Shown: positions 11,895 through 54,913 of the stretch, piece by piece
How positions within the stretch are numbered: position 1 is the first letter of the stretch
How the letters are laid out: each line of letters opens with the position of its first letter
From: a virus
Virus record (IMG/VR): IMGVR_UViG_3300030101_002520
Span: 51,140 to 115,139 of that record
DNA length: 64,000 nt
Direction: 5' to 3' (one strand)
The notes under the pieces: generated by a model
What the model was told of the DNA's origin: nothing
Database searches by the model: none
The model's input: the letters and a program-made list of their open reading frames with translations, nothing else
Program-made: the position numbers and the translations under genes

Positions 11895-12015
11895 AAGGAC
11901 AATGCTTACAACCACTGTTACAACAGTATCCTCTTTCTAAATGGTATGCTGCAGTCATGACTGTATTACCATCTTTATCTTTGTAAAAGTATGGACTAAA
12001 CTCAGTTGACTTCAC
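11863..12015 (-). CDS. Small Cys-rich protein, DUF5522-like
   Basis: GTG start overlapping the nrdJ stop; MKSTEFSPYFYKDKDGNTVMTAAYHLERGYCCNSGCKHCPF..., matching the YHLxRGYCCxSGCxHCP pattern. Not in the ORF track. Confidence 0.7.
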   Translation of the reverse strand: MKSTEFSPYFYKDKDGNTVMTAAYHLERGYCCNSGCKHCPFKTKDQKQKQ

Positions 12016-13867
12016 AAGCACCACCAGCACACGCCAGCTCTCCCATTAAATTAGTTTCATCATCATCTTCTATAACCTTAGAAAGATCTATATCCATTAT
12101 TGATGTAACCATTGTATTAAACTTATGCTCATCTATATCTTCAAATGGAGCTTGAGTATAAGTACCACCATCATAAGGTAGTACAGCTAGTCCATTGTAG
12201 TGATCTCTATTATTCCACATCCATTCACCTGCATCATTCCAGTCTTCATCCTTTAAACTAATAGTAGCAGAAACATTATGACTGTTAGATCCTGTTCTAT
12301 GTCCAGGTTTTACCCATTCAGTTGCAACTTTTTTTACTCTTTCTAATAATTGAAAAGCAGATTCAGTTCTTAATATAGATCCTCCTGGTGCTTTTTGTGG
12401 TATACTTATTACAGCAGTATCATGACCACGGAACACACAGTCTTCTACAAGATCAGGGTGGTTCTTAGCAAGATATCCATATATAGATTCATTTTTACCA
12501 ACACGTATTCTTCTTACATAATAATCATTATGCCATGCATGAATCCCGGAACTAGTTCCTAATGTTAATGATGTTGTACCAGCAGGTTTTACTGTTGTTG
12601 TTCTAGCAGCCTTTCTGATACCAATTAAGTTAGCAACACGTGCATTTTCTTTATTTACAATTTTTGCTGCAGCTGTCATGTCTATATAGTCAGCAAGAAC
12701 TTTTTTAGATCCTATACCTGTCATAGATACACCAATTAGTGCATCTTTTTCTGTAGTCTCTTGCCATACTGGTCTGAGATAGTGGAAGTTAGTATATCCT
12801 GCTTGAAGTGTTCCTATAAATGCAGCAGCTTTAACTCTTGCTTCTAAATCTTCTTGAGCTTCAACATTACTAACATTAACTTCACAAAGGTTGCAGAACT
12901 GAAAAGGTCTTAGTGCTATCTCACAACAAGGATTAGTTCCCCAGTCTTTATCATTATTAAAGTAAATACCAGGCTCACCAGCTTTACTTAGTTCAACTCT
13001 TTTCCATAAGTCCATAAAGAAAGACTTAGTTATCTTATGTCTCATAAGCACAGCAGAGTTATTTGCTCTACCACGTTGTGGATTTAGTTCCCACCAAGAA
13101 CCAGCTTTGCAAGCTATCATTTCATTATCATCTGCGCTAAATAAACTAATTAAAGCAGCACGTCTAATACCACCAGCCAATACAGCATCAGCTATGTGAC
13201 AAACAATATCATGCACTTCTAATGTAGATAGTGCATCACCATCTTCTTTATTTTCTAAAACTCCTGTTACTTTTAGTATACATTCTTTTAATGGTTGTGG
13301 ACCAGGTGCTTTACCACCTGATGTTACAAGTCTAGCACCTTTTGGTCTTATGTCTGAATAGTCAAATACTATACGTGAACTTTTACCATTTAAATAAGAT
13401 TTCATTAATATCTTAATAGCATCAGCCCATCCTTCAATTGAATCACTAATTAGATAACGTCTAGTTCTTTTCTTATATGGTTTATTAATTAATGGAAGTT
13501 TTTCAACATGGTGCTGTTGAACCGAATAACCTACACCTGTTCCACCAAGCAACAAGAACATGGTTTCACTAAATGCATCTACATGATCTATAGGAAGGTA
13601 TGCACAATTATATATTCTGTTAGGACTTATCTCTATTGGCTTGCCAGCAAACTGCATAGATCTCATAGAAGGTAAAATCTTTTTATCATAAACATAAGTA
13701 TATGCATCTAGTATATCACTCTTTAATTTAGGATATTTTTTAATATGCATTGCCATATTTCTTGTTACTAATTCTTCCCAAGTTTCTCTACGTTTTAACT
13801 CTGGTAAGTATTTTGCATATTTCATATAGACAGTGATATCACTAAGGATCTTGTTATTCAATTCCAT
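12002..13867 (-). CDS. nrdJ: Class II (adenosylcobalamin-dependent) ribonucleotide reductase
   Basis: PSMRSMQFAG, YNCAY, GTGVGYS, TNPCCEI active site, TTVKPAGT, C-terminal CAGGAC redox pair; no beta subunit nearby. Confidence 0.93.
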   Translation of the reverse strand: MELNNKILSDITVYMKYAKYLPELKRRETWEELVTRNMAMHIKKYPKLKSDILDAYTYVYDKKILPSMRSMQFAGKPIEISPNRIYNCAYLPIDHVDAFSETMFLLLGGTGVGYSVQQHHVEKLPLINKPYKKRTRRYLISDSIEGWADAIKILMKSYLNGKSSRIVFDYSDIRPKGARLVTSGGKAPGPQPLKECILKVTGVLENKEDGDALSTLEVHDIVCHIADAVLAGGIRRAALISLFSADDNEMIACKAGSWWELNPQRGRANNSAVLMRHKITKSFFMDLWKRVELSKAGEPGIYFNNDKDWGTNPCCEIALRPFQFCNLCEVNVSNVEAQEDLEARVKAAAFIGTLQAGYTNFHYLRPVWQETTEKDALIGVSMTGIGSKKVLADYIDMTAAAKIVNKENARVANLIGIRKAARTTTVKPAGTTSLTLGTSSGIHAWHNDYYVRRIRVGKNESIYGYLAKNHPDLVEDCVFRGHDTAVISIPQKAPGGSILRTESAFQLLERVKKVATEWVKPGHRTGSNSHNVSATISLKDEDWNDAGEWMWNNRDHYNGLAVLPYDGGTYTQAPFEDIDEHKFNTMVTSIMDIDLSKVIEDDDETNLMGELACAGGACEVN

Positions 13868-22427: not shown

Positions 22428-22658
22428 ATGATGAAAGGATTAAAAAATGTTATGGTCACTGATCAAAGAACTCAGATGACTTTTTGTGCAAGCTGTAAAA
22501 GCTGTCCTGCAATTGATATTTCCAAAGACTCAGACAAAGTTATTGTTGGAGGTGATGACGAAGGTTACACTGAGTTCACCAAAGATCAATTTGCTTTGTT
22601 TGTGAAAACAGTTAAGGAAGGTATGTATGATAAGTACCTTCCTGAAACTAAAGATTAA
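22428..22658 (+). CDS. Small CxxCxxC protein, DUF397-like
   Basis: CASCKSCPAIDI...VIVGGDD...FTKDQFALFVKTVKEG resembles the DUF397 layout. Confidence 0.45.
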   Translation: MMKGLKNVMVTDQRTQMTFCASCKSCPAIDISKDSDKVIVGGDDEGYTEFTKDQFALFVKTVKEGMYDKYLPETKD

Positions 22659-22660
22659 AG

Positions 22661-22921
22661 ATGGCAAAAAAGTGGATACAGGATGCAATAAAGAAACCGG
22701 GATCTTTAACAGCAGCAGCTAAAAGAGAGGGTAAAAGTATTACAGAATATTGTAAGACACCACCTTCCACTAAAGCAAAACAAAGGTGTAATTTAGCTAA
22801 TACCTTAAGAAAAATAGCTAAGAAAAGAAAAAAGAAAGCTTGTGGCGGATCAGTTATGTTTTGTGGTGGAGAATATCATTCACCAGTTAAACAAGCTGTA
22901 GGCCCAAATAAAATTTTATAA
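22661..22921 (+). CDS. Small basic protein with C-terminal GPNxxL
   Basis: MAKKWIQDAIKKPGSL...LANTLRK; CGG twice; ends AVGPNKIL. Confidence 0.75.
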   Translation: MAKKWIQDAIKKPGSLTAAAKREGKSITEYCKTPPSTKAKQRCNLANTLRKIAKKRKKKACGGSVMFCGGEYHSPVKQAVGPNKIL

Positions 22922-22923
22922 CT

Positions 22924-23298
22924 ATGGCAGCAAAAGGCCCACTAAGAAATATGTTACTTAGGCTTTTAGGTAAAAGTAAAAATGTTACTACAAACGTTCC
23001 TACAGGCCCTATTAAAGGAAGTCTTGATGAAAGTTTTCAAAAATTTGTTATAAAAAATAACATGTTAAATCAAAAAGGATTTTTTGGACCAGGTGGTTAT
23101 AGAGGAGGTGTAGATAATTTTCAAAAAAGAATAGATCAATTAAAACTTAATACAAAACCTAAAATGACTTTGGAGGAGTATCAAAGGAGTATTGATAACT
23201 TAAGATTACCAGATAATCCACCAAATTCAGGTAAACAATTGGATTTATTTAAAGATAAAAAAAAGGGTGGAAGCGTAGGACCAAATGGAGTGTTATGA
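22924..23298 (+). CDS. Basic protein with C-terminal GPNxxL
   Basis: Ends KKKGGSVGPNGVL. Confidence 0.7.
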   Translation: MAAKGPLRNMLLRLLGKSKNVTTNVPTGPIKGSLDESFQKFVIKNNMLNQKGFFGPGGYRGGVDNFQKRIDQLKLNTKPKMTLEEYQRSIDNLRLPDNPPNSGKQLDLFKDKKKGGSVGPNGVL

Positions 23299-23546
23299 AA
23301 CTATTTAATAAGTTAAGGAAAAGAAGAATAAGTAATAAGATTAATAAACTTAATCAGGAGACTGAAAATCTTCAAGGTAAAGGTTATGGTGTATTTCAAC
23401 CTGCATGGAATGAAGGTGGTAAACAAATTGTAAAGAATACAAAGAAAGTAATGGATTTACAAGATAAATTAAAAAAGTTAAGTAAAAAACATTGCGGTGG
23501 AGGTATGATGTGTGGAGGTGCTGTAGGACCAAATGGTATATTATGA
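23295..23546 (+). CDS. Small basic protein with C-terminal GPNxxL
   Basis: Ends KKHCGGGMMCGGAVGPNGIL. Confidence 0.7.
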   Translation: MKLFNKLRKRRISNKINKLNQETENLQGKGYGVFQPAWNEGGKQIVKNTKKVMDLQDKLKKLSKKHCGGGMMCGGAVGPNGIL

Positions 23547-24043
23547 AAAAATTAATTACATTTTTATTACTAGCACTAACTGCACTAGTTTATGGGCAAG
23601 ATAAAAATGTAAGACCAATAGATGTAGTAGAGAATATAAGTGTATACTTTGTAGACACAGCTTATTATAAGTCTTTGACACTTGACTCACTACATATACA
23701 AAATGTAACTGAGTTTGTTTATGTATCAAACGCAGTAGCTGACACACTAGTTGTGCCTGTTATAGAATTTGTTGAGAGAGTTACAGTTGATACGCTACAC
23801 ATACACGTACCTGAATGCAGAGTAGAATATGTAGAAGTGTATGTAACCGAAGAATTATTGATGCAGGATACTATTGTAGAGATAGAATTTAAAAATGCAC
23901 TTATAAGTTCTAACTCAGGAGTTCAAGAGATTTTAGATAAATCTTTTGGTAATAATATACTATATGATCTTCAAGGTAATCAAATAAGAAGACCAATGGG
24001 AGTTTATATAGAGAATGGTAAAATAAAGTATATAAAAATTTAA
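23543..24043 (+). CDS. Exported protein with short T9SS-CTD-like tail
   Basis: True start probably ATG 23543 (MKKLITFLLLALTALVYGQ signal peptide); C-terminal GVQEI...LYDLQGNQI...GVYIENGKIKYIK. Confidence 0.7.
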   Translation: MKKLITFLLLALTALVYGQDKNVRPIDVVENISVYFVDTAYYKSLTLDSLHIQNVTEFVYVSNAVADTLVVPVIEFVERVTVDTLHIHVPECRVEYVEVYVTEELLMQDTIVEIEFKNALISSNSGVQEILDKSFGNNILYDLQGNQIRRPMGVYIENGKIKYIKI

Positions 24044-24054
24044 AATTTAAAGTT

Positions 24055-24777
24055 ATGCCCGCAAATATGAAAAAATCTGGAATGTCATACAAGAAAGGAG
24101 GTTCCAAAAAAATGTACGGAGGTACAATGAAAAAAAAGAAAATGTATGGAGGAACCATGAAAAAGAAAATGTATGGTGGCTCCAAAAAGAAAATGATGAA
24201 GAAAGGTGGAATGATGAAAGCTAATAAAGGTTTAGAGAAATTAGCTGAAGCAAATCCTGAGCTTACGTATACAAAAAAAATGTATGGTGGTATGGCTAAT
24301 CCAAACAAAGATGAAATGATGATGTATGGTGGTGCTATGTATAAAAAGATGATGAAGATGGCAGGTGGTCCAATGATGAATGAAGAAGGAATGAAAGTAC
24401 CAGGTATGATGAAAGCTGGTGGTGGATTAAGAAAAATGCCAGGTGGTGGTTACATGAGAGATATGGATCTACCTAAAGCACAGTCTGGACTTTTTACAAA
24501 AGGTCTTAAAGGAATAGCAAAAAAATTGGGAAAAGGTAAAATAACAAATCCAAGCACAATAGATAATGTGAATGTGAAGAAAACTCTTTTTCAAGGTGTA
24601 AATAAGAAAGGTGAACAGGTTTTTAAATTAGGAACAGATGGTAATGTATTTACAAAAAAAGATAATGCAATGGCTCCTTTTTTACAGAATAAGGCAAAGA
24701 TCTTAGAAATATTAAGGGGAAACAATCCTACAAAAAATAAAGTTTATAAAAAAGGAACTTTATATGGTCCTAAATAA
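24055..24777 (+). CDS. Met/Lys/Gly-rich basic protein with MYGG/KKGG repeats
   Basis: About a dozen xxGG motifs; LPKAQSG; very basic. Confidence 0.75.
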   Translation: MPANMKKSGMSYKKGGSKKMYGGTMKKKKMYGGTMKKKMYGGSKKKMMKKGGMMKANKGLEKLAEANPELTYTKKMYGGMANPNKDEMMMYGGAMYKKMMKMAGGPMMNEEGMKVPGMMKAGGGLRKMPGGGYMRDMDLPKAQSGLFTKGLKGIAKKLGKGKITNPSTIDNVNVKKTLFQGVNKKGEQVFKLGTDGNVFTKKDNAMAPFLQNKAKILEILRGNNPTKNKVYKKGTLYGPK

Positions 24778-24789
24778 AAAAAATAAACT

Positions 24790-25185
24790 ATGAGTATACT
24801 AAAAAAGATTTTTTCAGGTGCCGGAAGCAACCTGGTAGAATCAGTTGGCGGTGTGATTGATAATTTAGTAACAACAGATGAGGAAAAATTAGAAGCCAAA
24901 AGAAAACTAAAAGAACTCATTATGAGTCATGAGGCTCAGATGGAGAAGAACATAACTGACCGTTGGACAGCAGATATGAACTCTGACTCCTGGCTGAGTA
25001 AAAATGTAAGACCCATGGTTCTTATATTTTTAATTGTATGTACTATGCTATTGATCTTTATTGATGCTGGTGCACTTACGTTTACAGTAGAAGAGAAGTG
25101 GACAGATCTTTTACAATTAGTTTTAATTACAGTAATAGGTGCATATTTTGGTGGCCGTTCTGTAGAAAAATTTAAAAAGAAATGA
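24790..25185 (+). CDS. Holin (GTA 3TM-holin-like)
   Basis: TTDEEK...RWTADMNSDSWLSKNVRP, two TM segments, GAYFGGRSVEK. Confidence 0.75.
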   Translation: MSILKKIFSGAGSNLVESVGGVIDNLVTTDEEKLEAKRKLKELIMSHEAQMEKNITDRWTADMNSDSWLSKNVRPMVLIFLIVCTMLLIFIDAGALTFTVEEKWTDLLQLVLITVIGAYFGGRSVEKFKKK

Positions 25186-25799
25186 GAAAAATAAAAAAAG
25201 AATTACCTAAAGCACAGAGAGGTTATCTTGGGAGACAAGTTGCAAAAATTCTTGGTTTTAGTGATGAAGCTTTAGAAGCAGCTAGAAAAAAACAAGCACA
25301 AATAAATAAGAGGAAGCCTACTAATAAGAATACTAATAAAAGTAAAATTAATACAAATAAAAAGAAGAAGAGTAATAAACAATCTTTTCTTGATAAGCAA
25401 TTTGAGTTTAAAAGTCCTAGTTTACGTCAACTAAATCCACTTAGGATAATTAACCCAGGAATACCAAATACTGCTAGGTTTATTAAAAAAAATCCTCTTG
25501 GTACTGGTGCACTTGGCCTTTCTTTAGCGGCATATTTAAGATCAAGACAACCTGGTATTGATCCAGTACAACCTATAGAAAATTTTAATATTCCAAGTAA
25601 CTTTAGTAATGATTTTAATATAAGCAGAAATACTGAAGCTCCAAATGTAAATTTAGATAGTATTTTGCGTAGTCAAGACTTGTTAAATTTTGATAAGAAA
25701 GGTGGACGTGTTAAAGCTAGAGGTGGTAAAACAGCTCCGGGTATGAGAAAACAAGGTGGTGGTCTTAAGATAGACCGTAATGGTAAATACTACAGGTAA
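25182..25799 (+). CDS. Basic protein with LPKAQxG and terminal GG motifs
   Basis: ELPKAQRG at the N-terminus; KKGG/ARGG/KQGG at the C-terminus. Confidence 0.7.
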   Translation: MRKIKKELPKAQRGYLGRQVAKILGFSDEALEAARKKQAQINKRKPTNKNTNKSKINTNKKKKSNKQSFLDKQFEFKSPSLRQLNPLRIINPGIPNTARFIKKNPLGTGALGLSLAAYLRSRQPGIDPVQPIENFNIPSNFSNDFNISRNTEAPNVNLDSILRSQDLLNFDKKGGRVKARGGKTAPGMRKQGGGLKIDRNGKYYR

Positions 25800-25924
25800 T
25801 GGCAGCTAGAAACACGTTTACATTTAGAAGCAATGGTGGTAAGAAAAGAAGAGGTGTCCACAGTAAAAATGCTAGCAAATCTCAAAATGCCTATAAGAAA
25901 CCCTATAGAGGGCAAGGAAGATAA
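25799..25924 (+). CDS. 41-aa basic peptide ending YRGQGR
   Basis: Hand-translated MAARNTFTFRSNGGKKRRGVHSKNASKSQNAYKKPYRGQGR; TAATG-coupled. Confidence 0.7.
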   Translation: MAARNTFTFRSNGGKKRRGVHSKNASKSQNAYKKPYRGQGR

Positions 25925-25935
25925 AAAAGAGGAGA

Positions 25936-26256
25936 CTATTGATCTCCTCTTTCTTTTATAAGCCCCTCAAGAATTATAAGATAGTTTATGGCATCTCCTA
26001 TTTTTTCTTCTAACAGTTCATCTGTTGGGACCTCTCCGGGACATTTGCTTATAATGGTTTTAATACATTCAAAATGTTTGCAAGCATATTCCCAAGCTAC
26101 ACCTTCTGGTGTATCATGAAAAGAAAAACCTACACCATTTTTAAATGATTGGAATACATCTAGGTCAGTAGCATATTCGTTCATCTTAATAGCATAAGTT
26201 TCTCTAGTTTTAGTGAACCTCTGTTCTAGAAGTTCCATGAATTTGTCATAAGTCAT
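25936..26256 (-). CDS. All-alpha nucleotide pyrophosphatase-like protein (DUF1599/MazG-like)
   Basis: KMNEYA..D...F, KH, EEKIGDAINYLIIL pattern. Confidence 0.5.
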   Translation of the reverse strand: MTYDKFMELLEQRFTKTRETYAIKMNEYATDLDVFQSFKNGVGFSFHDTPEGVAWEYACKHFECIKTIISKCPGEVPTDELLEEKIGDAINYLIILEGLIKERGDQ

Positions 26257-26369
26257 ACTTCTTTTTCAAGCTTTCTTAAGACTTCAGGATCAACAATTGG
26301 CATGCCATCCTCATTCACATTATTAGGAACAGTTGGTTCCTCCATAGAAATCATTTTTTCTAAATCCAT
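26253..26369 (-). CDS. Small acidic hypothetical protein (38 aa)
   Basis: Hand-translated MDLEKMISMEEPTVPNNVNEDGMPIVDPEVLRKLEKEV; ATGA overlap with the next gene. Confidence 0.45.
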   Translation of the reverse strand: MDLEKMISMEEPTVPNNVNEDGMPIVDPEVLRKLEKEV

Positions 26370-26386
26370 AAATAAATAATTAAAAA

Positions 26387-26560
26387 TTAAAGTTCTTCAC
26401 CAAAACATTTTTTCATTAATCTTGTTAATCTTAACTCAATGCTGGTGATTAATTCAGTTAAAGTGGTTAAAGCTAATGCTGTAACCCAGAATATTATAAT
26501 GATAATTAGTAGCATAGAACCGCTAATCATCTTAATGCAATTTAATAAAAATTTTCCCAT
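26387..26560 (-). CDS. Small membrane protein (57 aa)
   Basis: Hand-translated MGKFLLNCIKMISGSMLLIIIIIFWVTALALTTL...; starts right after the radical SAM stop. Confidence 0.45.
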   Translation of the reverse strand: MGKFLLNCIKMISGSMLLIIIIIFWVTALALTTLTELITSIELRLTRLMKKCFGEEL

Positions 26561-26561
26561 T

Positions 26562-27440
26562 TTAAAATATATATCTAATTTTATTCCAAGGTATTACGTT
26601 ATCATGTTCTTTTATAAATGCATCAATAAATTGTTCTTTTAATTTATGTTTATATCTAACGTTTCTACCTCCATACTGTGATGTTTTACTCTCCTGCAGA
26701 CTAGGTGTCCACAAATCTATTTCTTGTTTTTCTTTATGATCTATTAAGTTTTTATAATGTTTATTCTTGTTATGTGTTAAAAATATACACTCAGCATAAA
26801 CACCTTCTTCATATCTTACATTGTTATTTATTAAAGCAAATAACTCTTCATAGTCATCTAACCAGCCTTCATAAACTAATATGGGACTAAAGTTAATATG
26901 AACATCATATCCTGCTTCTTTAAACTTATCTATTGCTTGTACTCTTTCTAATATTGTTGATGTATTGGGTTCATGTAATGCACGTTTCTTTTCAGGCATC
27001 ATACTAAACCGTATTCTAATCTTCTTGTTTGGATTGTATTTAAGTAATTCTTTGTTAACATATTTAGTTGCAAAGCTTCCCATTATATCTTCATTATACT
27101 TGAAAAAATCAAATATAAATTGCCAATCATGGTATTTACAATGAAGAGCAAAGTCTTCATTACAACTAATATCATATGTAATATATTTTGGATGTGTTTG
27201 ATTTGGTTTTTTTGTTTCTAGTTTTGCAAATATAGAATGGTTGTTTATCTCTGTAAGTATTTGGTTTGCATTTGTTGCTATTGATAATCCTTCAGGCTTG
27301 TGCCTTTTCATATAACAATATGAACAATCATATAAACATCCCCAACCAAAGCTTGGAGATATAAAGTCTGTAGATCTACCCGAAGGTCTAATCTTCAGAC
27401 TTTTTCTAATATCTCTAGTGACTAATGTCATATCTTCCAC
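26562..27440 (-). CDS. Spore photoproduct lyase (SplB)-family radical SAM protein
   Basis: GCLYDCSYCYM (CxxxCxxC); FATK, RIRFSMMP, EPNTSTILERV, GYDVHINFSPI and YGGRNVRY motifs of the SPL family. Confidence 0.85.
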   Translation of the reverse strand: MEDMTLVTRDIRKSLKIRPSGRSTDFISPSFGWGCLYDCSYCYMKRHKPEGLSIATNANQILTEINNHSIFAKLETKKPNQTHPKYITYDISCNEDFALHCKYHDWQFIFDFFKYNEDIMGSFATKYVNKELLKYNPNKKIRIRFSMMPEKKRALHEPNTSTILERVQAIDKFKEAGYDVHINFSPILVYEGWLDDYEELFALINNNVRYEEGVYAECIFLTHNKNKHYKNLIDHKEKQEIDLWTPSLQESKTSQYGGRNVRYKHKLKEQFIDAFIKEHDNVIPWNKIRYIF

Positions 27441-28264
27441 TCTTCAAATGTGTCATAATCTTGCGCTTCAAGATCTGCAAATAACCCATCAGTAGTGTCA
27501 ATTGTAGGTGTAACCCAAGTTGTATCTTTCTGATGTAATCCTGCTTGACTTAATAACTCTGCAGTCATAAACTCATGAAATCTAACTTGATCACTCATCC
27601 AGGTACGTGGATGTGACTTCTTAAAAGAATGTGTAACATGATTGTAAAATGTCCATGCATTATTAAGATCAGCTGAATAATGATATGATGGATCTTTCAT
27701 CTCTGCTTTTATAACAGAAACTTGTGATGCATCAATAATCTCTTCATCTAAGAATAATCTTCCAACTAGTTCTGCCTGACTCTTTTTAGGTAGAAATATT
27801 TGTCTCATCTTATTCTTATCATCAATTAACTTATCAAAGTATTTGTTGGCTGACTTAATTTGTGAACTTATTTGAGTATGAATGTCATGATCTGCTTTAC
27901 CTGTATGTTTTCTAGCATAGTTTGCCATGTCTCCACATAACATACCATTGCTACATACATTTACGAAAGCTCCTACAGCACACTGAAACCGTGTACTTTT
28001 ATCATAAGAGTTAGTCCAGGCAAACATCATGCCCATTTCTTCATCTTTGGTAGAGGCAAGGTGATATACACCCTGCGCTACCTTTGCATTCATATTAGCT
28101 CTATATAGCTCTTTTGTGATTCTAAATCCATTATTGTCTAATAGAGTTTTAGTTGTCTCTATGACATCTTTATGAGGAATAACTGTGTAAGTTTTTCCAT
28201 GATTAGGTAGTGGAGCTGCCACTAAAAAATCTTTTGTAGTATTTATTGGTCTTGTGTATCCCAT
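27428..28264 (-). CDS. DUF932-like protein
   Basis: TYTVIPH, NSYDKS...VGAFVNVCSNGM...RKHTG, AWTFYNHVT. Confidence 0.75.
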   Translation of the reverse strand: MGYTRPINTTKDFLVAAPLPNHGKTYTVIPHKDVIETTKTLLDNNGFRITKELYRANMNAKVAQGVYHLASTKDEEMGMMFAWTNSYDKSTRFQCAVGAFVNVCSNGMLCGDMANYARKHTGKADHDIHTQISSQIKSANKYFDKLIDDKNKMRQIFLPKKSQAELVGRLFLDEEIIDASQVSVIKAEMKDPSYHYSADLNNAWTFYNHVTHSFKKSHPRTWMSDQVRFHEFMTAELLSQAGLHQKDTTWVTPTIDTTDGLFADLEAQDYDTFEEWKI

Positions 28265-52053: not shown

Positions 52054-52362
52054 ATGAAAGATCAAAATCCAGATGACTTCTTACCAGAAATGAGTGAGTC
52101 AGAAAAATATGAGGTTGAACAGATGATGATAGATAAAGCGTTTGATAATTCGTACTTGGTATTAACTAATAGAGCTACTATAGAAGAATTATTAGAAAGA
52201 AAATCTAAGTATGGAATGAAAGGTATAATGATGTTTGACCCAGGTGATGAGCCGGATGAGGATTTATTTGATGATGTAATATATTATTATGAGGATCTTG
52301 AAGAGTATGAACGTTGTGCGGAATTATTGAAGATTAAGAAAAAGAAATTTAAAAATGTATAG
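52054..52362 (+). CDS. Acidic protein with UVR (UvrB/C)-like tail
   Basis: YYEDLEEYERCAELLK; start placed at MKDQ. Confidence 0.6.
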   Translation: MKDQNPDDFLPEMSESEKYEVEQMMIDKAFDNSYLVLTNRATIEELLERKSKYGMKGIMMFDPGDEPDEDLFDDVIYYYEDLEEYERCAELLKIKKKKFKNV

Positions 52363-52726
52363 TTATAATGCAAAGTGCATAAGAGTAGTAGATGGAGATA
52401 CTATAGATGCAGAAATAGATCTTGGCTTTGATGTTAAGATTAAAAAAAGAATAAGGCTAGCTGGTATTAATGCACCAGAGTCTAGAACTAGAAATAAGGT
52501 TGAAAAGAAGTTAGGCTTAGCAGCAAAGGAAAGATTAATTGAAATGTTAGATGGTGCTGCTAATTATTTTGAATTAGAATCACAAGAACTTGGTAAGTAT
52601 GGTAGAGTTCTTGGTAGATTACACATAGATAAAATAGCAGGCAAAGATACAATTACTAAAGTATGTGTAAATGATTGCCTCGTAAAAGAAGGACACGCCG
52701 TAGAATATAACGGTGGTAAACGTTAA
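52355..52726 (+). CDS. Thermonuclease (SNase) family nuclease
   Basis: RVVDGDTID, RIRLAGINAPE, GKYGRVLG, VN..LVKEGHA. Confidence 0.9.
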   Translation: MYSYNAKCIRVVDGDTIDAEIDLGFDVKIKKRIRLAGINAPESRTRNKVEKKLGLAAKERLIEMLDGAANYFELESQELGKYGRVLGRLHIDKIAGKDTITKVCVNDCLVKEGHAVEYNGGKR

Positions 52727-52749
52727 TATTAACAATTAAAATTAAAATT

Positions 52750-53013
52750 ATGCCAAAACATGGAATGAAATATCACAAGGGTGGTTCAAATGCTAAAATG
52801 CCAAAATCAGTTATTAAAAAAGGTGGGGCAACTTGCATAGGTAAAGTTAAAGGTGTTGATGTATGTGCTTTAACATTAAGACAACAAAAAACATTAAAAA
52901 AACATTCTGTACACCATACAAAGAAACATATGCAAATGATGGTTAATGCTATGAAAAATGGTGCATCATTTGGAGCTTCTCATAAAATGGCACAGAAAAA
53001 AGTAGGAAAATAA
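52750..53013 (+). CDS. Small basic protein
   Basis: KGG twice; LTLRQQKTLKKHSVHHTKKHM...SHKMAQKKVGK. Confidence 0.7.
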   Translation: MPKHGMKYHKGGSNAKMPKSVIKKGGATCIGKVKGVDVCALTLRQQKTLKKHSVHHTKKHMQMMVNAMKNGASFGASHKMAQKKVGK

Positions 53014-53324
53014 TGCCTAAGAAAAAAAAGGATCCTAGAGTAGGGACTGGAAAAAAACCAAAAGGTAGTGGTAGAAGACTATATACGGATGAAAATCCTA
53101 AAGATACTGTACGTATAAAGTTTGCTACACCTGCAGATGCAAGAGCAACTGTAGCTAAAGTTAAGAAGATTAGTAAACCTTATGCTAGAAAGATTCAAAT
53201 ACTAACTGTAGGAGAACAAAGAGCAAAGGTTATGAAAAAAACACAGGTTGCTGCAATATTTAAAAGAGGTAAAGAAGCAATAAGAAAGAAGCATAAAAAA
53301 AAGAAAGATGTCAAAAAGAAGTAA
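53013..53324 (+). CDS. Small basic protein
   Basis: GTGKKPKGSGRRLYTDENPKDTVRIKFAT; TAATG-coupled. Confidence 0.7.
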   Translation: MPKKKKDPRVGTGKKPKGSGRRLYTDENPKDTVRIKFATPADARATVAKVKKISKPYARKIQILTVGEQRAKVMKKTQVAAIFKRGKEAIRKKHKKKKDVKKK

Positions 53325-53574
53325 AAAAGGTGGAATGTCAGGATGTACAATCAAAAATGGTTGTAAAAGTAAATCTGGTGGTCTTACAGCTAAAGGGCGT
53401 AAGATGATTAACCGTAAAACAGGATCTAAACTAAAAGCTCCACAGCCAGGAGGAGGTCCACGTAAAAGATCTTTTTGTGCTAGAAATCTTGGGCAAATAA
53501 AAAAGTTTAATATTGATTGCAGGAAGACTCCTAAAAAAAGAGCATGTCTTGCAAGAAAACGTTGGAAATGTTAA
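53308..53574 (+). CDS. Small basic Cys-containing protein (DUF6321-like)
   Basis: GGLTAKGR...GSKLKAPQ...RKRSFCAR...ARKRWKC. Confidence 0.65.
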   Translation: MSKRSKKGGMSGCTIKNGCKSKSGGLTAKGRKMINRKTGSKLKAPQPGGGPRKRSFCARNLGQIKKFNIDCRKTPKKRACLARKRWKC

Positions 53575-53585
53575 AATAAATAATT

Positions 53586-53750
53586 ATGGCAAAGAAAAAA
53601 AAGAAAAAAGCTAAAAGAGATGCTTGTTACAGTAAAGTAAGAGCAAGATATAGTGTATGGCCTTCAGCTTATGCATCCGGTGCATTGGTAAGATGTAGAA
53701 AGGTAGGAGCTGCCAATTGGGGTAATAAGTCTAAAAAGAAAAAGAAATAA
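53586..53750 (+). CDS. Small basic protein (54 aa)
   Basis: Hand-translated MAKKKKKKAKRDACYSKVRARYSVWPSAYASGALVRCRKVGAANWGNKSKKKKK. Confidence 0.75.
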   Translation: MAKKKKKKAKRDACYSKVRARYSVWPSAYASGALVRCRKVGAANWGNKSKKKKK

Positions 53751-53965
53751 TGGCTAAAGAAAGCTTACATAAGTGGTTTAGTAGAAACAAAGGTAAAGGT
53801 TGGATAGATTGTAAAACTGGTAAACCTTGTGGAAGGAAGTCAGCAAAAGGTGGATCTAAAAGACCTTATCCTGCTTGCAGACCTACTAAAGCACAATGTA
53901 CATCTGCAGCTAGAAAAAAAACTAGTTCAAAAAGAATTAGCTGGAAAAAACGTAAAAAGAAATAG
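53750..53965 (+). CDS. Small basic Cys-containing protein
   Basis: SLHKWF...WIDCKTGKPCGR...RPYPACRP. Confidence 0.7.
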   Translation: MAKESLHKWFSRNKGKGWIDCKTGKPCGRKSAKGGSKRPYPACRPTKAQCTSAARKKTSSKRISWKKRKKK

Positions 53966-53967
53966 TT

Positions 53968-54111
53968 ATGAAAATTAATAAAAAAGATAAATCTTCTAAA
54001 GTAAAAGAAGATAAAATTGAAAAAGCTAAACAAAAATATAGAAGTGGTGGACAAGTGCAAGGTTGTGGTTGTCCTTATGGAATGAATATGGGACCTAATA
54101 GTGTATTATAA
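53968..54111 (+). CDS. Small basic protein with C-terminal GPNxxL (47 aa)
   Basis: Hand-translated MKINKKDKSSKVKEDKIEKAKQKYRSGGQVQGCGCPYGMNMGPNSVL. Confidence 0.65.
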   Translation: MKINKKDKSSKVKEDKIEKAKQKYRSGGQVQGCGCPYGMNMGPNSVL

Positions 54112-54700: not shown

Positions 54701-54913
54701 ATGAATATATTTAAAGATAATAATGATTGGAATGAAAAAGCTATAATAGGTTTTGTAGCATTTGTCATTATGTGTATAATAATGGTTGCTGATCTAGTAA
54801 CAGGCTGGGTAGGTAAAGACTTAGTAATTAATGAGTTTGTTTATGATTCATTTGTTTGGGTGGTTCTCGGCTGCTTTGGTATCAGTGGCGTTGAGAAATT
54901 TGCCAAAAAATGA
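54701..54913 (+). CDS. Two-TM holin-like membrane protein
   Basis: Two hydrophobic segments; ends GCFGISGVEKFAKK. Confidence 0.6.
   Translation: MNIFKDNNDWNEKAIIGFVAFVIMCIIMVADLVTGWVGKDLVINEFVYDSFVWVVLGCFGISGVEKFAKK

What the first reader, a model, noticed from the sequence alone, without database searches (positions are those of the whole stretch)
22661..27440. Possible spore-like UV-protection system: SP-lyase-family enzyme plus many small basic DNA-binding candidates
Seen: an SplB-family radical SAM gene (26562-27440) lies at the end of the early block, converging on a cluster of small K/R-rich proteins; a second such cluster lies at 52750-54111 (about a dozen proteins in all). Known: spore photoproduct forms in dehydrated, A-like DNA, such as SASP-coated spore DNA, and SplB reverses it without light. 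Inference: densely packed capsid DNA, perhaps coated with these basic proteins, accumulates spore photoproduct in sunlight and is repaired after injection, making the virion analogous to an endospore. The link between the two gene sets is my hypothesis and rests only on co-occurrence in this genome.
Basis: inference. Interest (0 to 1): 0.75.

Follow-up and report, generated by a model that had tools for sequence, protein, structure and literature searches.

The report
Short phage photoproduct lyase, unlinked basic proteins
A marine crAss-like phage carries a shortened but catalytically intact relative of the enzyme that repairs UV-damaged spore DNA, and it probably repairs a thymine cross-link in phage DNA without light; the dozen small basic proteins encoded nearby are fast-changing accessory genes that show no specific tie to it.

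Summary
Observation confirmed. The gene at 26562-27440(-) is an SPL-family radical SAM gene (Pfam SPL 5.8e-26; TIGR03886 4.7e-84; model TM 0.83 to PDB 4FHE/4FHF). Twelve small ORFs with pI 9.7-12.0 lie in two late-strand clusters.

The enzyme lacks the N-terminal domain of spore SplB. It keeps the Fe-S cysteines, both relay tyrosines, the H-donor cysteine, the thymine-binding Arg/Glu/Tyr triad and the hairpin tyrosine. This roughly 285-aa form occurs in at least 600 marine viral contigs, always among replication genes, but in none of 50,697 deposited phage genomes. Light-independent repair of a spore-photoproduct-type thymine dimer is therefore the best reading. It is untested.

The proposed link to the basic proteins is not supported:
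- None is SASP-like.
- Two of the families occur in 173 and 365 phage genomes that lack the lyase.
- Four of six complete lyase-bearing genomes lack one of those families, and five of six lack the other.
- A 94%-complete relative without the lyase has as many small basic ORFs (9) as this phage.
- The C-terminally tagged family follows phylogeny, not the lyase.
- The clusters are hypervariable islands.

This scan has already reported the short phage lyase on other DNA (e1-5948939, e1-6010558, e1-6009837).

The parts
26562..27440 (-). Short-form SPL-family radical SAM enzyme, 292 aa (289 aa from the ATG at 27431). Cluster cysteines C35/C39/C42. Relay tyrosines Y41/Y43. H-donor C93. SAM contacts K126/S146. 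Thymine-binding triad R144/E217/Y290. Beta-hairpin 249-263 with Y256 at its tip.
27428..28264 (-). DUF932 protein (278 aa). Its end overlaps the SPL start by 13 nt. It is the commonest SPL neighbour: 33 of 82 loci, immediately upstream in 22. Function unknown.
26387..26560 (-). 57-aa hydrophobic (transmembrane-like) protein directly downstream of SPL. Present in 19-22 SPL loci.
25936..26256 (-). 106-aa acidic protein (phrog_6802, 1.1e-19), the last gene of the minus-strand block. There is a weak lead to DUF1599. Marine metatranscriptome contigs cover it.
25923..25955 (.). Bidirectional terminator-like hairpin (10-14 bp stem, T runs on both strands) between the two converging blocks.
22661..22921 (+). 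86-aa basic protein (pI 10.2) ending in AVGPNKIL. Its N-terminal motif matches phrog_20603.
22924..23298 (+). 124-aa basic protein (pI 10.2) ending in GGSVGPNGVL.
23295..23546 (+). 83-aa basic protein (pI 10.2) ending in GGAVGPNGIL. Absent from the close relative L002.
24055..24777 (+). 240-aa basic protein (pI 10.2, net +40) with five MYGG repeats and an LPKAQSG motif that is shared with cargo-like proteins.
24790..25185 (+). Holin (phrog_3427 1.4e-32; Pfam GTA_holin_3TM), placed between the basic genes.
25182..25799 (+). 205-aa basic protein (pI 10.9) with an LPKAQRG motif. Only 33-34% identical in relatives whose flanking genes are 96-100% identical.
25799..25924 (+). 41-aa very basic protein (pI 12.0). 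phrog_516 at 1.5e-4. Conserved in 16 SPL loci.
52355..52726 (+). SNase-type nuclease (Pfam PF00565, 3.1e-11) immediately upstream of cluster 2. In other phages it is fused to the 54-aa basic module (P0342).
52750..53013 (+). 87-aa basic protein (pI 10.6); phrog_31838 at 4.1e-7.
53013..53324 (+). 103-aa basic protein (pI 11.0); no family match.
53308..53574 (+). 88-aa DUF6321 protein (PF19846, 4.9e-15; pI 11.5; 6 Cys). Homologues in 173 cyanophage and pelagiphage records.
53586..53750 (+). 54-aa basic module (pI 10.8). Its core is 86-89% identical to ORFs of T4-like cyanophages, with 365 phage records and at least 7,993 longer proteins. Predicted as a two-helix hairpin.
53750..53965 (+). 71-aa basic, Cys-rich protein (pI 11.0). 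It resembles a module of the polyprotein P0282.
53968..54111 (+). 47-aa protein (pI 9.7) ending in NMGPNSVL: the fourth tagged ORF.

Best explanation
There are two separate things here.

(1) The gene at 26562-27440(-) encodes a minimal, roughly 285-aa, virus-borne form of spore photoproduct lyase. It is made together with the replication genes. It most likely uses a [4Fe-4S] cluster and SAM to abstract an H atom from a methylene-bridged thymine dimer (5-thyminyl-5,6-dihydrothymine or a very similar lesion) that is flipped out of DNA. It would then split the bridge and finish the reaction by H-atom donation from Cys93, with relay through Tyr43/Tyr41. That would repair UV damage, carried in by the AT-rich phage genome or arising in it, without light. 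The shown parts are family membership, fold, conservation of the catalytic and thymine-binding residues, and a constant replication/recombination gene context. The inferred parts are the substrate, the timing, and whether the lesion forms in virions at all.

(2) The twelve small basic proteins are not a partner system. They form two hypervariable accessory-gene islands at the two ends of the late strand. One island is a lineage-specific family marked by a C-terminal GG-x-x-GPN-x-(I/V)L tag. The other is a set of free-standing copies of small Cys-containing basic modules (DUF6321, a 54-aa module and others). These modules circulate among marine cyanophages, pelagiphages and flavobacterial phages, and elsewhere they are strung into polyproteins or fused to an SNase nuclease. 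Their most likely role is as nucleic-acid-binding or packaged/injected accessory proteins. This is inference only.
For: SPL, sequence and fold.
- Pfam SPL 5.8e-26; TIGR03886 282 bits over profile positions 61-346; TIGR04070 84.7 bits.
- PDB 4FHC at 1.8e-14.
- AlphaFold model with pLDDT 92.9 and pTM 0.91.
- Foldseek TM 0.83-0.84 and rmsd 2.8-3.0 A to 4FHE/4FHF/4FHC; the next radical SAM enzyme scores TM 0.5.

SPL, residues. The roles are taken from PMC3467042. Conservation was counted in 116 close homologues.
- Cluster cysteines C90/C94/C97 = C35/C39/C42: 116/116.
- Y96 = Y41: 116/116. Y98 = Y43: 114/116.
- H-donor C140 = C93: 112/116.
- K174 = K126 and S195 = S146: 116/116 each.
- R193 = R144: 115/116.
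- E268 = E217 and Y339 = Y290: 116/116 each.
- Hairpin-tip Y305 = Y256: 110/116.

SPL, distribution.
- At least 600 IMG/VR stretches and 3,117 protein clusters, nearly all 284-289 aa.
- 35 of 40 PolB-anchored relatives keep an SPL-family gene at the same site. Fifteen of these are a divergent type at 28-33% identity.
- Neighbours are PolB, DUF932, PD-(D/E)XK nucleases and helicases.
- The genome has no photolyase and no T4 endonuclease V-type gene.
- About 237 TpT sites per kb.

No link to the basic proteins.
- SASP model: no match at E<=1.
- DUF6321 occurs in 173 deposited phage records and the 54-aa module in 365. SPL occurs in none of 50,697 records at E<=1e-5.
- Of six complete SPL-bearing genomes, 2/6 have DUF6321 and 1/6 has the 54-aa module.
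- Small basic ORF counts: SPL+ genomes 9, 5, 6, 4, 2, 3 and 7; the SPL-minus relative G728 (94% complete) has 9.
- Tagged ORFs occur only where PolB identity is at least 78%. This includes L156, which has no SPL.
- Close relatives differ by gene gain, loss and replacement across 22650-25690.
- The 54-aa module is fused to SNase, DUF6321, DUF5661, DUF5872 and DUF192 in other proteins.
Against: - No enzyme of this short clade, nor of TIGR03886, has been assayed to my knowledge. None was found in the library.
- The protein scores below the curated cut-offs of both NCBIfam equivalogs.
- The equivalents of Arg273 and Lys309 (intra-lesion phosphate contacts) could not be placed with confidence.
- COG1533-type proteins also occur in organisms with little UV exposure (PMC11383801).
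- A distant SPL-like radical SAM enzyme of phage M6 is a DNA-modification isomerase (PMC8989533).
- From my own knowledge, not checked here: Raman studies of P22 and T7 found packaged DNA in the B form. Spore photoproduct formation in capsids is therefore unproven.
- All five large records that carry the tagged family also carry SPL. A lineage-level association therefore cannot be excluded.
- The comparison with lyase-free relatives rests on one near-complete genome and a few fragments.
Confidence: 0.55

Rival explanations
1. The basic proteins coat the packaged DNA as SASPs do. This drives it to an A-like, dehydrated state in which UV makes spore photoproduct instead of cyclobutane dimers. 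The lyase then removes the lesion after injection.
For: The lyase is intact. Twelve strongly cationic small proteins are encoded on the late strand. Two of them share an LPK[A/Y/F]Q-x-G motif with cargo-like virion proteins. All five large records that carry the tagged family also carry the lyase.
Against: - No SASP homology.
- The families occur in hundreds of lyase-free phages.
- Most complete lyase-bearing genomes lack them and have only 2-4 small basic ORFs.
- A lyase-free relative has as many basic ORFs as this phage.
- The islands are hypervariable between near-identical phages.
- The tagged family tracks PolB identity, not the lyase.
- True alpha/beta SASPs are highly conserved and are not notably basic (my own knowledge).
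Confidence: 0.07
2. The enzyme is not a repair lyase. It is a DNA base-modification or tailoring enzyme, like the SPL-like radical SAM isomerase gp53 of Pseudomonas phage M6, and it acts on newly replicated phage DNA.
For: M6 gp53 is a precedent: it models on SPL at 13% identity (PMC8989533). The gene sits in the replication block. The downstream 106-aa protein has a weak language-model lead to DUF1599, a domain I recall being linked to nucleotide modification. The host phylum sample lacks the family (0 of 300 other genomes), so this is a virus-maintained gene.
Against: - The genome has no thymidylate-synthase-like hydroxymethylase and no ThyX.
- None of the SPL neighbours annotated by Pfam is a kinase, a PLP enzyme or a glycosylase-like transferase.
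- No BLAST similarity to any deposited phage protein, M6 included.
- The SP-specific H-donor Cys, the relay tyrosines and the thymine-binding triad are all conserved.
Confidence: 0.12
3. The enzyme is a genuine radical DNA-repair lyase, but its natural lesion is not the classical UV spore photoproduct of condensed virion DNA. It could be, for example, a related thymine or pyrimidine cross-link formed in replicating, single-stranded or host DNA, or damage unrelated to sunlight.
For: Bona fide long-form TIGR03886 genes occur sporadically in non-sporulating bacteria (5 of 400 sampled genomes) and have no repair-specific neighbours. The wider family is found in taxa with little UV exposure (PMC11383801). 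The N-terminal domain is missing and two phosphate-contact residues could not be placed.
Against: All residues that contact the two thymines of 5R-SP in 4FHF are kept. The carriers are marine phages with about 31-34% G+C. The contigs come from marine, seawater, estuary and sponge metagenomes.
Confidence: 0.2
4. The tagged small proteins are ribosomal peptide (RiPP-type) substrates of the radical SAM enzyme. The conserved GG...GPNGIL tail would be the recognition or cleavage element.
For: Several paralogous small ORFs combine hypervariable bodies with a conserved terminal motif that includes Gly-Gly. They lie within 4 kb of a radical SAM gene.
Against: - The enzyme is an SPL in fold and active site and has no SPASM/twitch or peptide-binding domain.
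- The two gene sets are on opposite strands in different modules.
- The lyase occurs in many lineages without tagged ORFs.
- L156 has a tagged ORF but no lyase.
Confidence: 0.02

Closest known systems
Spore photoproduct lyase SplB/SPL of Bacillus and Geobacillus (TIGR04070; PDB 4FHC/4FHD/4FHE/4FHF)
   Same: Same partial TIM-barrel radical SAM fold (TM 0.83). Same CX3CX2C cluster. It keeps Tyr96/Tyr98, the H-donor Cys140, the SAM contacts Lys174/Ser195, the thymine-binding Arg193/Glu268/Tyr339 and the beta-hairpin with an aromatic tip.
   Different: Only about 22% identical, and 84.7 bits against a cut-off of 400. It lacks about 57 N-terminal residues, which is most of the alpha/beta domain. 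It is encoded by a phage of non-sporulating marine bacteria in a replication operon, with no SASPs and no sporulation control. Its activity is untested.
NCBIfam TIGR03886, 'spore photoproduct lyase family protein' of non-sporulating bacteria
   Same: This is the best-scoring family (4.7e-84, colinear over profile positions 61-346). In the tree the bona fide long forms sit inside the same radiation as the viral forms.
   Different: The score (282 bits) is below the equivalog cut-off (437.55) because the N-terminal 60 positions are absent. Bona fide members are about 346-365 aa, rare (5 of 400 sampled genomes of one phylum) and themselves uncharacterised. At least one (P0152) has Thr where the phage enzyme keeps the H-donor Cys.
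Radical SAM isomerase gp53 of Pseudomonas phage M6 (thymidine hypermodification; PMC8989533)
   Same: A phage-encoded, SPL-like radical SAM enzyme that acts on thymine derivatives in DNA.
   Different: M6 gp53 is only remotely SPL-like (13% identity to SPL) and sits in a cluster with a 5-hmdU kinase, an aGPT-Pplase and a PLP enzyme. None of these was found here, and no sequence similarity to any deposited phage genome was detected.
Phage-encoded UV repair such as T4 endonuclease V (DenV)
   Same: The same logic: a phage brings its own light-independent repair of UV dimers in its genome.
   Different: The fold and chemistry are unrelated (glycosylase/AP lyase versus radical direct reversal). 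No Pyr_excise homologue is present in this genome.
Alpha/beta-type small acid-soluble spore proteins (SASP, PF00269)
   Different: There is no sequence match. The phage proteins are strongly cationic, Cys-containing, hypervariable, and spread among phages of non-sporulating hosts.
T4 internal proteins (IPI-III) with a capsid-targeting sequence
   Same: This is a possible analogy for the tagged family: small basic accessory proteins with variable bodies and a short conserved terminal signal.
   Different: The T4 signal is N-terminal and is cleaved by the prohead protease. Here the tag is C-terminal and packaging has not been shown. The comparison rests on my own knowledge, not on a test.

Membership tests
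Spore photoproduct lyase proper (SplB, TIGR04070) | Radical SAM CX3CX2C [4Fe-4S] motif | tested here: met
   C35/C39/C42 align with Gt C90/C94/C97. Invariant in 116/116 close homologues.
Spore photoproduct lyase proper (SplB, TIGR04070) | Score above the curated equivalog cut-off (400 bits) | tested here: not met
   84.7 bits.
Spore photoproduct lyase proper (SplB, TIGR04070) | H-atom donor cysteine (Cys140 in Gt, Cys141 in Bs) and relay tyrosines (Tyr96/Tyr98) | tested here: met
   C93, Y41 and Y43. Conserved in 112/116, 116/116 and 114/116 close homologues.
Spore photoproduct lyase proper (SplB, TIGR04070) | Thymine-binding residues Arg193, Glu268 and Tyr339 | tested here: met
   R144, E217 and Y290 by multiple alignment. 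Their roles are taken from PMC3467042. The pairwise phmmer alignment places Glu268 two residues away from E217, so that one assignment rests on the multiple alignment.
Spore photoproduct lyase proper (SplB, TIGR04070) | Beta-hairpin with an aromatic tip (Tyr305) for lesion flipping | tested here: met
   The model has strands 249-253 and 259-263 with Y256 at the tip. Y256 is conserved in 110/116.
Spore photoproduct lyase proper (SplB, TIGR04070) | N-terminal alpha/beta domain (four-stranded sheet with three helices) | tested here: not met
   The alignment starts at about Gt residue 63 and at profile position 59-61. Homologues are 284-289 aa.
Spore photoproduct lyase proper (SplB, TIGR04070) | Overall SPL fold | tested here: met
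   Foldseek TM 0.83-0.84 to 4FHE/4FHF/4FHC, E 4e-19.
Spore photoproduct lyase proper (SplB, TIGR04070) | SAM-dependent cleavage of 5R-spore photoproduct | not testable with these tools
   This needs anaerobic reconstitution and an assay.
TIGR03886 SPL-family protein | Score above the curated cut-off (437.55 bits) over the full-length profile | tested here: not met
   282.5 bits over positions 61-346 only. Bona fide members score 566-631 bits.
Alpha/beta-type SASP (PF00269) | Match to the SASP profile in any of the basic proteins or anywhere in the genome | tested here: not met
   No match at E<=1 in six frames of the whole 115-kb genome. No SASP hit in the Pfam scans.
Thymidine hypermodification cluster (M6/ViI type) | Companion genes: dUMP hydroxymethylase (thymidylate-synthase fold), 5-hmdU kinase, aGPT-Pplase, PLP enzyme | tested here: not met
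   PF00303 and PF02511 are absent from the genome. The Pfam scans of the larger replication-block genes and of recurrent SPL neighbours found no such genes. The kinase and the aGPT-Pplase were not searched with dedicated models.
DUF6321 (PF19846) | Score above the Pfam gathering threshold | tested here: met
   53308-53574 scores 56.4 bits against 28.5.
   The only positive association (5/5 tagged records with the lyase) lies within one lineage.

The most novel reading that the evidence does not exclude
The short viral lyase clade exists because condensed, AT-rich DNA inside sunlit marine virions forms spore-photoproduct-type thymine dimers in meaningful amounts. Phages would then bring their own radical, light-independent direct-reversal enzyme to undo the damage on entry. 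That would be a hitherto unmeasured UV lesion and repair route in ocean viruses, whether or not basic internal proteins contribute.
Probability: 0.3. Interest if true: 0.8.

Novelty: new variant of a known kind. Interest (0 to 1): 0.5.

Why it matters
Sunlight is a main cause of loss of infectivity of marine viruses. The known rescue routes are host photoreactivation and excision repair.

A large, uncultivated clade of phage-borne minimal SP lyases would point to a different lesion chemistry in packaged DNA and to a phage-owned dark repair step. The clade has at least 600 viral contigs, and the gene is near-core in this crAss-like lineage. Both ideas can be tested directly by photoproduct LC-MS on virions and by an in vitro lyase assay.

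The enzyme would also be the smallest natural SPL, which is useful for mechanistic work.

The negative result matters too. The 'virion as endospore' idea with SASP-like coats is not backed by comparative genomics, so effort should go to the enzyme and the lesion.

The small basic modules are a separate puzzle. They are 86-89% identical between a flavobacterial crAss-like phage and T4-like cyanophages.

Tried and rejected
I therefore could not read the contexts of individual homologues and used loci and genome handles instead.
The single-protein scan found only four MAG contigs, probably phage DNA binned into MAGs.
- Neighbours of bona fide cellular TIGR03886 genes (deaminase, SHOCT protein, isoamylase, acyltransferase) gave no functional clue.
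- The fold of the 54-aa module is a two-helix hairpin with pLDDT 71 and has no Foldseek match in the PDB. There is therefore no structural evidence for or against DNA binding.
- PDB sequence search with the 106-aa neighbour found nothing.
- Marine metatranscriptome contigs cover only 25945-26348 and 27449-27609, not the body of the lyase gene. Expression is therefore not shown.
- TpT odds ratios are about 1.0 in lyase-bearing and lyase-free genomes alike, so there is no sign of TT avoidance.
- Literature searches for a viral SPL, for spore photoproduct in capsids, and for the DUF families found nothing relevant.
- The careful tree search did not finish. Only a quick, midpoint-rooted tree was obtained, so no claim is made about the origin or direction of the N-terminal loss.
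- The RiPP-substrate idea for the tagged proteins was considered and rejected (see rival explanations).
- Depth and light distribution of the family could not be tested because sample metadata are not available here.

Full report
**What the DNA is.** The window is bases 51140-115139 of a 115,139-bp IMG/VR virus record estimated 98% complete. It has giant late-strand proteins of 4979, 2979 and 1938 aa. It also has a minus-strand replication block at 25936-51144 with PolB, UDG, a PD-(D/E)XK nuclease, a DUF2201 protein, DnaG primase, an AAA_24 ATPase, DnaB and an SNF2 helicase. This is the layout of a marine crAss-like phage, as earlier notes of this scan on the same genome also say. Near-identical DNA is held by marine, seawater, estuary and sponge metagenomes of about nine studies. 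No close cultured relative exists: the best PolB match in deposited phages is 38% identical.

**Checking the observation.** The ORF at 26562-27440(-) matches Pfam SPL (5.8e-26), NCBIfam TIGR03886 (4.7e-84, 282.5 bits, profile positions 61-346) and TIGR04070 (5.8e-24). It matches Geobacillus SPL, PDB 4FHC, at 1.8e-14. It is the fourth-from-last gene of the minus-strand block. That block meets the plus-strand late block at a bidirectional terminator-like hairpin at 25923-25955. One addition: a holin (24790-25185, phrog_3427 1.4e-32) and a non-basic exported protein sit among the cluster-1 genes.

**The enzyme.**
- An AlphaFold model built from 18 homologues is confident (pLDDT 92.9, pTM 0.91). 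Its only strong structural neighbours are the SPL entries 4FHE/4FHF/4FHC (TM 0.83-0.84, rmsd 2.8-3.0 A). The next radical SAM enzymes score TM about 0.5.
- I took residue roles from the SPL structure paper (PMC3467042) and mapped them to the phage protein. The cluster cysteines are C35/C39/C42. Tyr96/Tyr98 correspond to Y41/Y43. The H-donor Cys140 is C93. The SAM contacts Lys174/Ser195 are K126/S146. The residues that hydrogen-bond the 5'-dihydrothymine (Arg193, Glu268, Tyr339) are R144/E217/Y290. The hairpin-tip Tyr305 is Y256.
- In 116 close homologues these positions are conserved in 110-116 sequences. In 63 more distant representatives most are kept, but the H-donor Cys is kept in only 35.
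- The intra-lesion phosphate contacts Arg273 and Lys309 could not be placed with confidence.
- About 57 N-terminal residues, most of the alpha/beta domain of SplB, are missing. This is the norm for the clade: homologues are 284-289 aa.
- The protein therefore fails the curated cut-offs of both NCBIfam equivalogs and should not be filed as SplB proper. It nevertheless has what SP-lyase chemistry needs.

**Distribution and context of the lyase.**
- tblastn against 50,697 deposited phage genomes finds nothing at E<=1e-5. The only weaker hit is 1e-4, in a faecal metagenomic fragment.
- Among 185,579 species genomes only four MAG contigs carry close relatives. A Lewinella/Neolewinella cluster shows that short forms also occur in cellular genomes.
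- None of 300 other sampled genomes of the phylum of the Kordia MAG that carries the short form has a TIGR03886 homologue. Five of 400 genomes of another phylum have bona fide long forms.
- In 82 lyase-bearing loci the recurrent neighbours are DUF932 (33 loci, 22 directly upstream), the 106-aa and 57-aa proteins, PolB, PD-(D/E)XK nucleases, helicases and GroES.
- In 40 PolB-anchored relatives, 20 carry this lyase type. Fifteen carry a divergent SPL-family gene (28-33% identity) at the same site. Five carry none.
- A gene that is kept, or replaced by a distant allele, at one site in a replication operon fits a DNA-repair role.
- The genome has no photolyase, no T4 endonuclease V-type gene, no thymidylate-synthase-like hydroxymethylase and no ThyX. 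This weakens the DNA-hypermodification rival, for which M6 gp53 is the precedent (PMC8989533).

**The basic proteins.**
- None resembles SASPs.
- Cluster 1 holds a family defined by a C-terminal GG-x-x-GPN-x-(I/V)L tag. There are four ORFs in this genome and 30 ORFs in 900 kb of related loci, all on the late strand and nearly all with pI about 10.
- An independent DNA-pattern scan of IMG/VR found the tag on 30 stretches of DNA. Up to six tagged ORFs stand in tandem.
- The 240-aa and 205-aa proteins that flank the holin share an LPK[A/Y/F]Q-x-G motif. Elsewhere in the genome it is found only in two large cargo-like proteins. This is a lead towards packaging, not evidence.
- Cluster 2 consists of free-standing modules that are widespread in marine phages. 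DUF6321 (53308-53574) occurs in 173 deposited cyanophage and pelagiphage genomes.
- The core of the 54-aa protein is 86-89% identical to ORFs of T4-like cyanophages (365 records). In P-SSM2 it lies inside a gene between gp15 and the small terminase.
- At least 7,993 longer proteins contain the 54-aa module. They include polyproteins that combine it with DUF6321, DUF5661, DUF5872 or DUF192, and one fusion to an SNase nuclease. In the window an SNase gene (52355-52726) directly precedes cluster 2.
- In relatives L013, L066 and L073 the cluster-2 genes sit beside the holin, where cluster 1 lies here.
- Phages with 93-96% identical flanks differ by deletions, insertions and replacements across 22650-25690.
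- These are hypervariable accessory islands.

**Testing the proposed link.**
1. The basic families do not need the lyase: hundreds of deposited phages have them, and none has the lyase.
2. The lyase does not need them. Of six complete lyase-bearing records, two have DUF6321 and one has the 54-aa module. By one fixed criterion (up to 250 aa, pI at least 10, K+R at least 0.2), complete lyase-bearing genomes have 9, 5, 6, 4, 2, 3 and 7 small basic ORFs.
3. Within the lineage, the 94%-complete relative G728 has no SPL-family gene but has 9 small basic ORFs.
4. Tagged ORFs occur only where PolB identity is at least 78%. One of these contigs, L156, has only 591 bp between DUF932 and the 106-aa gene, which is too short for the lyase.
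5. The one positive signal is that all five large records with tagged ORFs also have the lyase. It lies within one lineage and counts as a single observation.

**What remains open.** No assay exists for this clade. The wider family is not confined to UV-exposed organisms (PMC11383801). Whether spore photoproduct forms in capsids is unknown. From my own knowledge, packaged DNA of model phages is B-form, which speaks against the A-like premise but not against altered photochemistry at very high DNA density. Expression was not shown.

**Verdict.**
- The enzyme is a new, shortened, virus-borne variant of a known kind of repair enzyme. The same short phage lyase was already reported by this scan on other DNA (e1-5948939, e1-6010558, e1-6009837).
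- The 'spore-like system' that joins it to the basic proteins is not supported.
- The probability that virions really accumulate an SP-type lesion repaired by this enzyme is about 0.3.
- The probability that the basic proteins are part of that story is about 0.07.

Noticed in passing
window 22661-23546 and 53968-54111; loci L003, L004, L017, L018, L127, L130, L142: Small basic proteins with unrelated bodies share a strict C-terminal GG-x-x-GPN-x-(I/V)L-stop tag. There are 30 such ORFs in related contigs and up to six in tandem (L127). The tag is confined to the sub-lineage with PolB identity of at least 78%. It could be a packaging, processing or docking signal.
   Followed up: partly
loci L152, L153, L165, L167, L188-L193, L195, L196, L199, L200, L202, L205 (site downstream of DUF932): Fifteen of 40 PolB-anchored relatives carry a divergent SPL-family gene at the same site as the window's lyase. 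It is 28-33% identical to the window's gene, and the two such genes scored whole (in records G722 and G723) reach about 134 bits to TIGR03886. Five relatives carry none. This looks like allele replacement rather than simple loss.
   Followed up: partly
window 52355-53750; proteins P0342, P0282, P0393: The 54-aa basic module is fused to an SNase nuclease in P0342. In polyproteins of up to about 1000 aa it is strung together with DUF6321 and other small Cys-containing modules. Here the same parts are separate adjacent genes.
   Followed up: partly
window 24055-24777 and 25182-25799; G000 proteins of 910 and 1027 aa upstream of the window: The motif (L/I)PK[A/Y/F]Q-x-(A)G occurs in only four proteins of the genome: two large cargo-like proteins and the two basic proteins that flank the holin.
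   Followed up: partly
window 25923-25955: A bidirectional terminator-like hairpin sits exactly where the late and replication blocks converge. It overlaps the last codons of the 106-aa gene.
   Followed up: yes
window 54701-54913: A 70-aa membrane protein ends in GVEKFAKK, much like the holin's C-terminus (SVEKFKKK). Homologues lie next to the holin in relatives L066, L073, L074 and L078. There is no BLAST-level similarity to the holin itself.
   Followed up: partly
window 25936-26256: The 106-aa acidic protein downstream of the lyase (phrog_6802) has a language-model lead to DUF1599. It is the only part of the region covered by marine metatranscriptome contigs at depth 5-12.
   Followed up: partly
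window 12002-13867 (-): A class II (B12-dependent) ribonucleotide-reductase-like gene stands on the minus strand inside the plus-strand late block.
   Followed up: no
protein P0121 (451 aa): A homologue of the short lyase carries a 156-aa N-terminal extension. From memory, its motifs resemble DUF4326. This was not tested.
   Followed up: no
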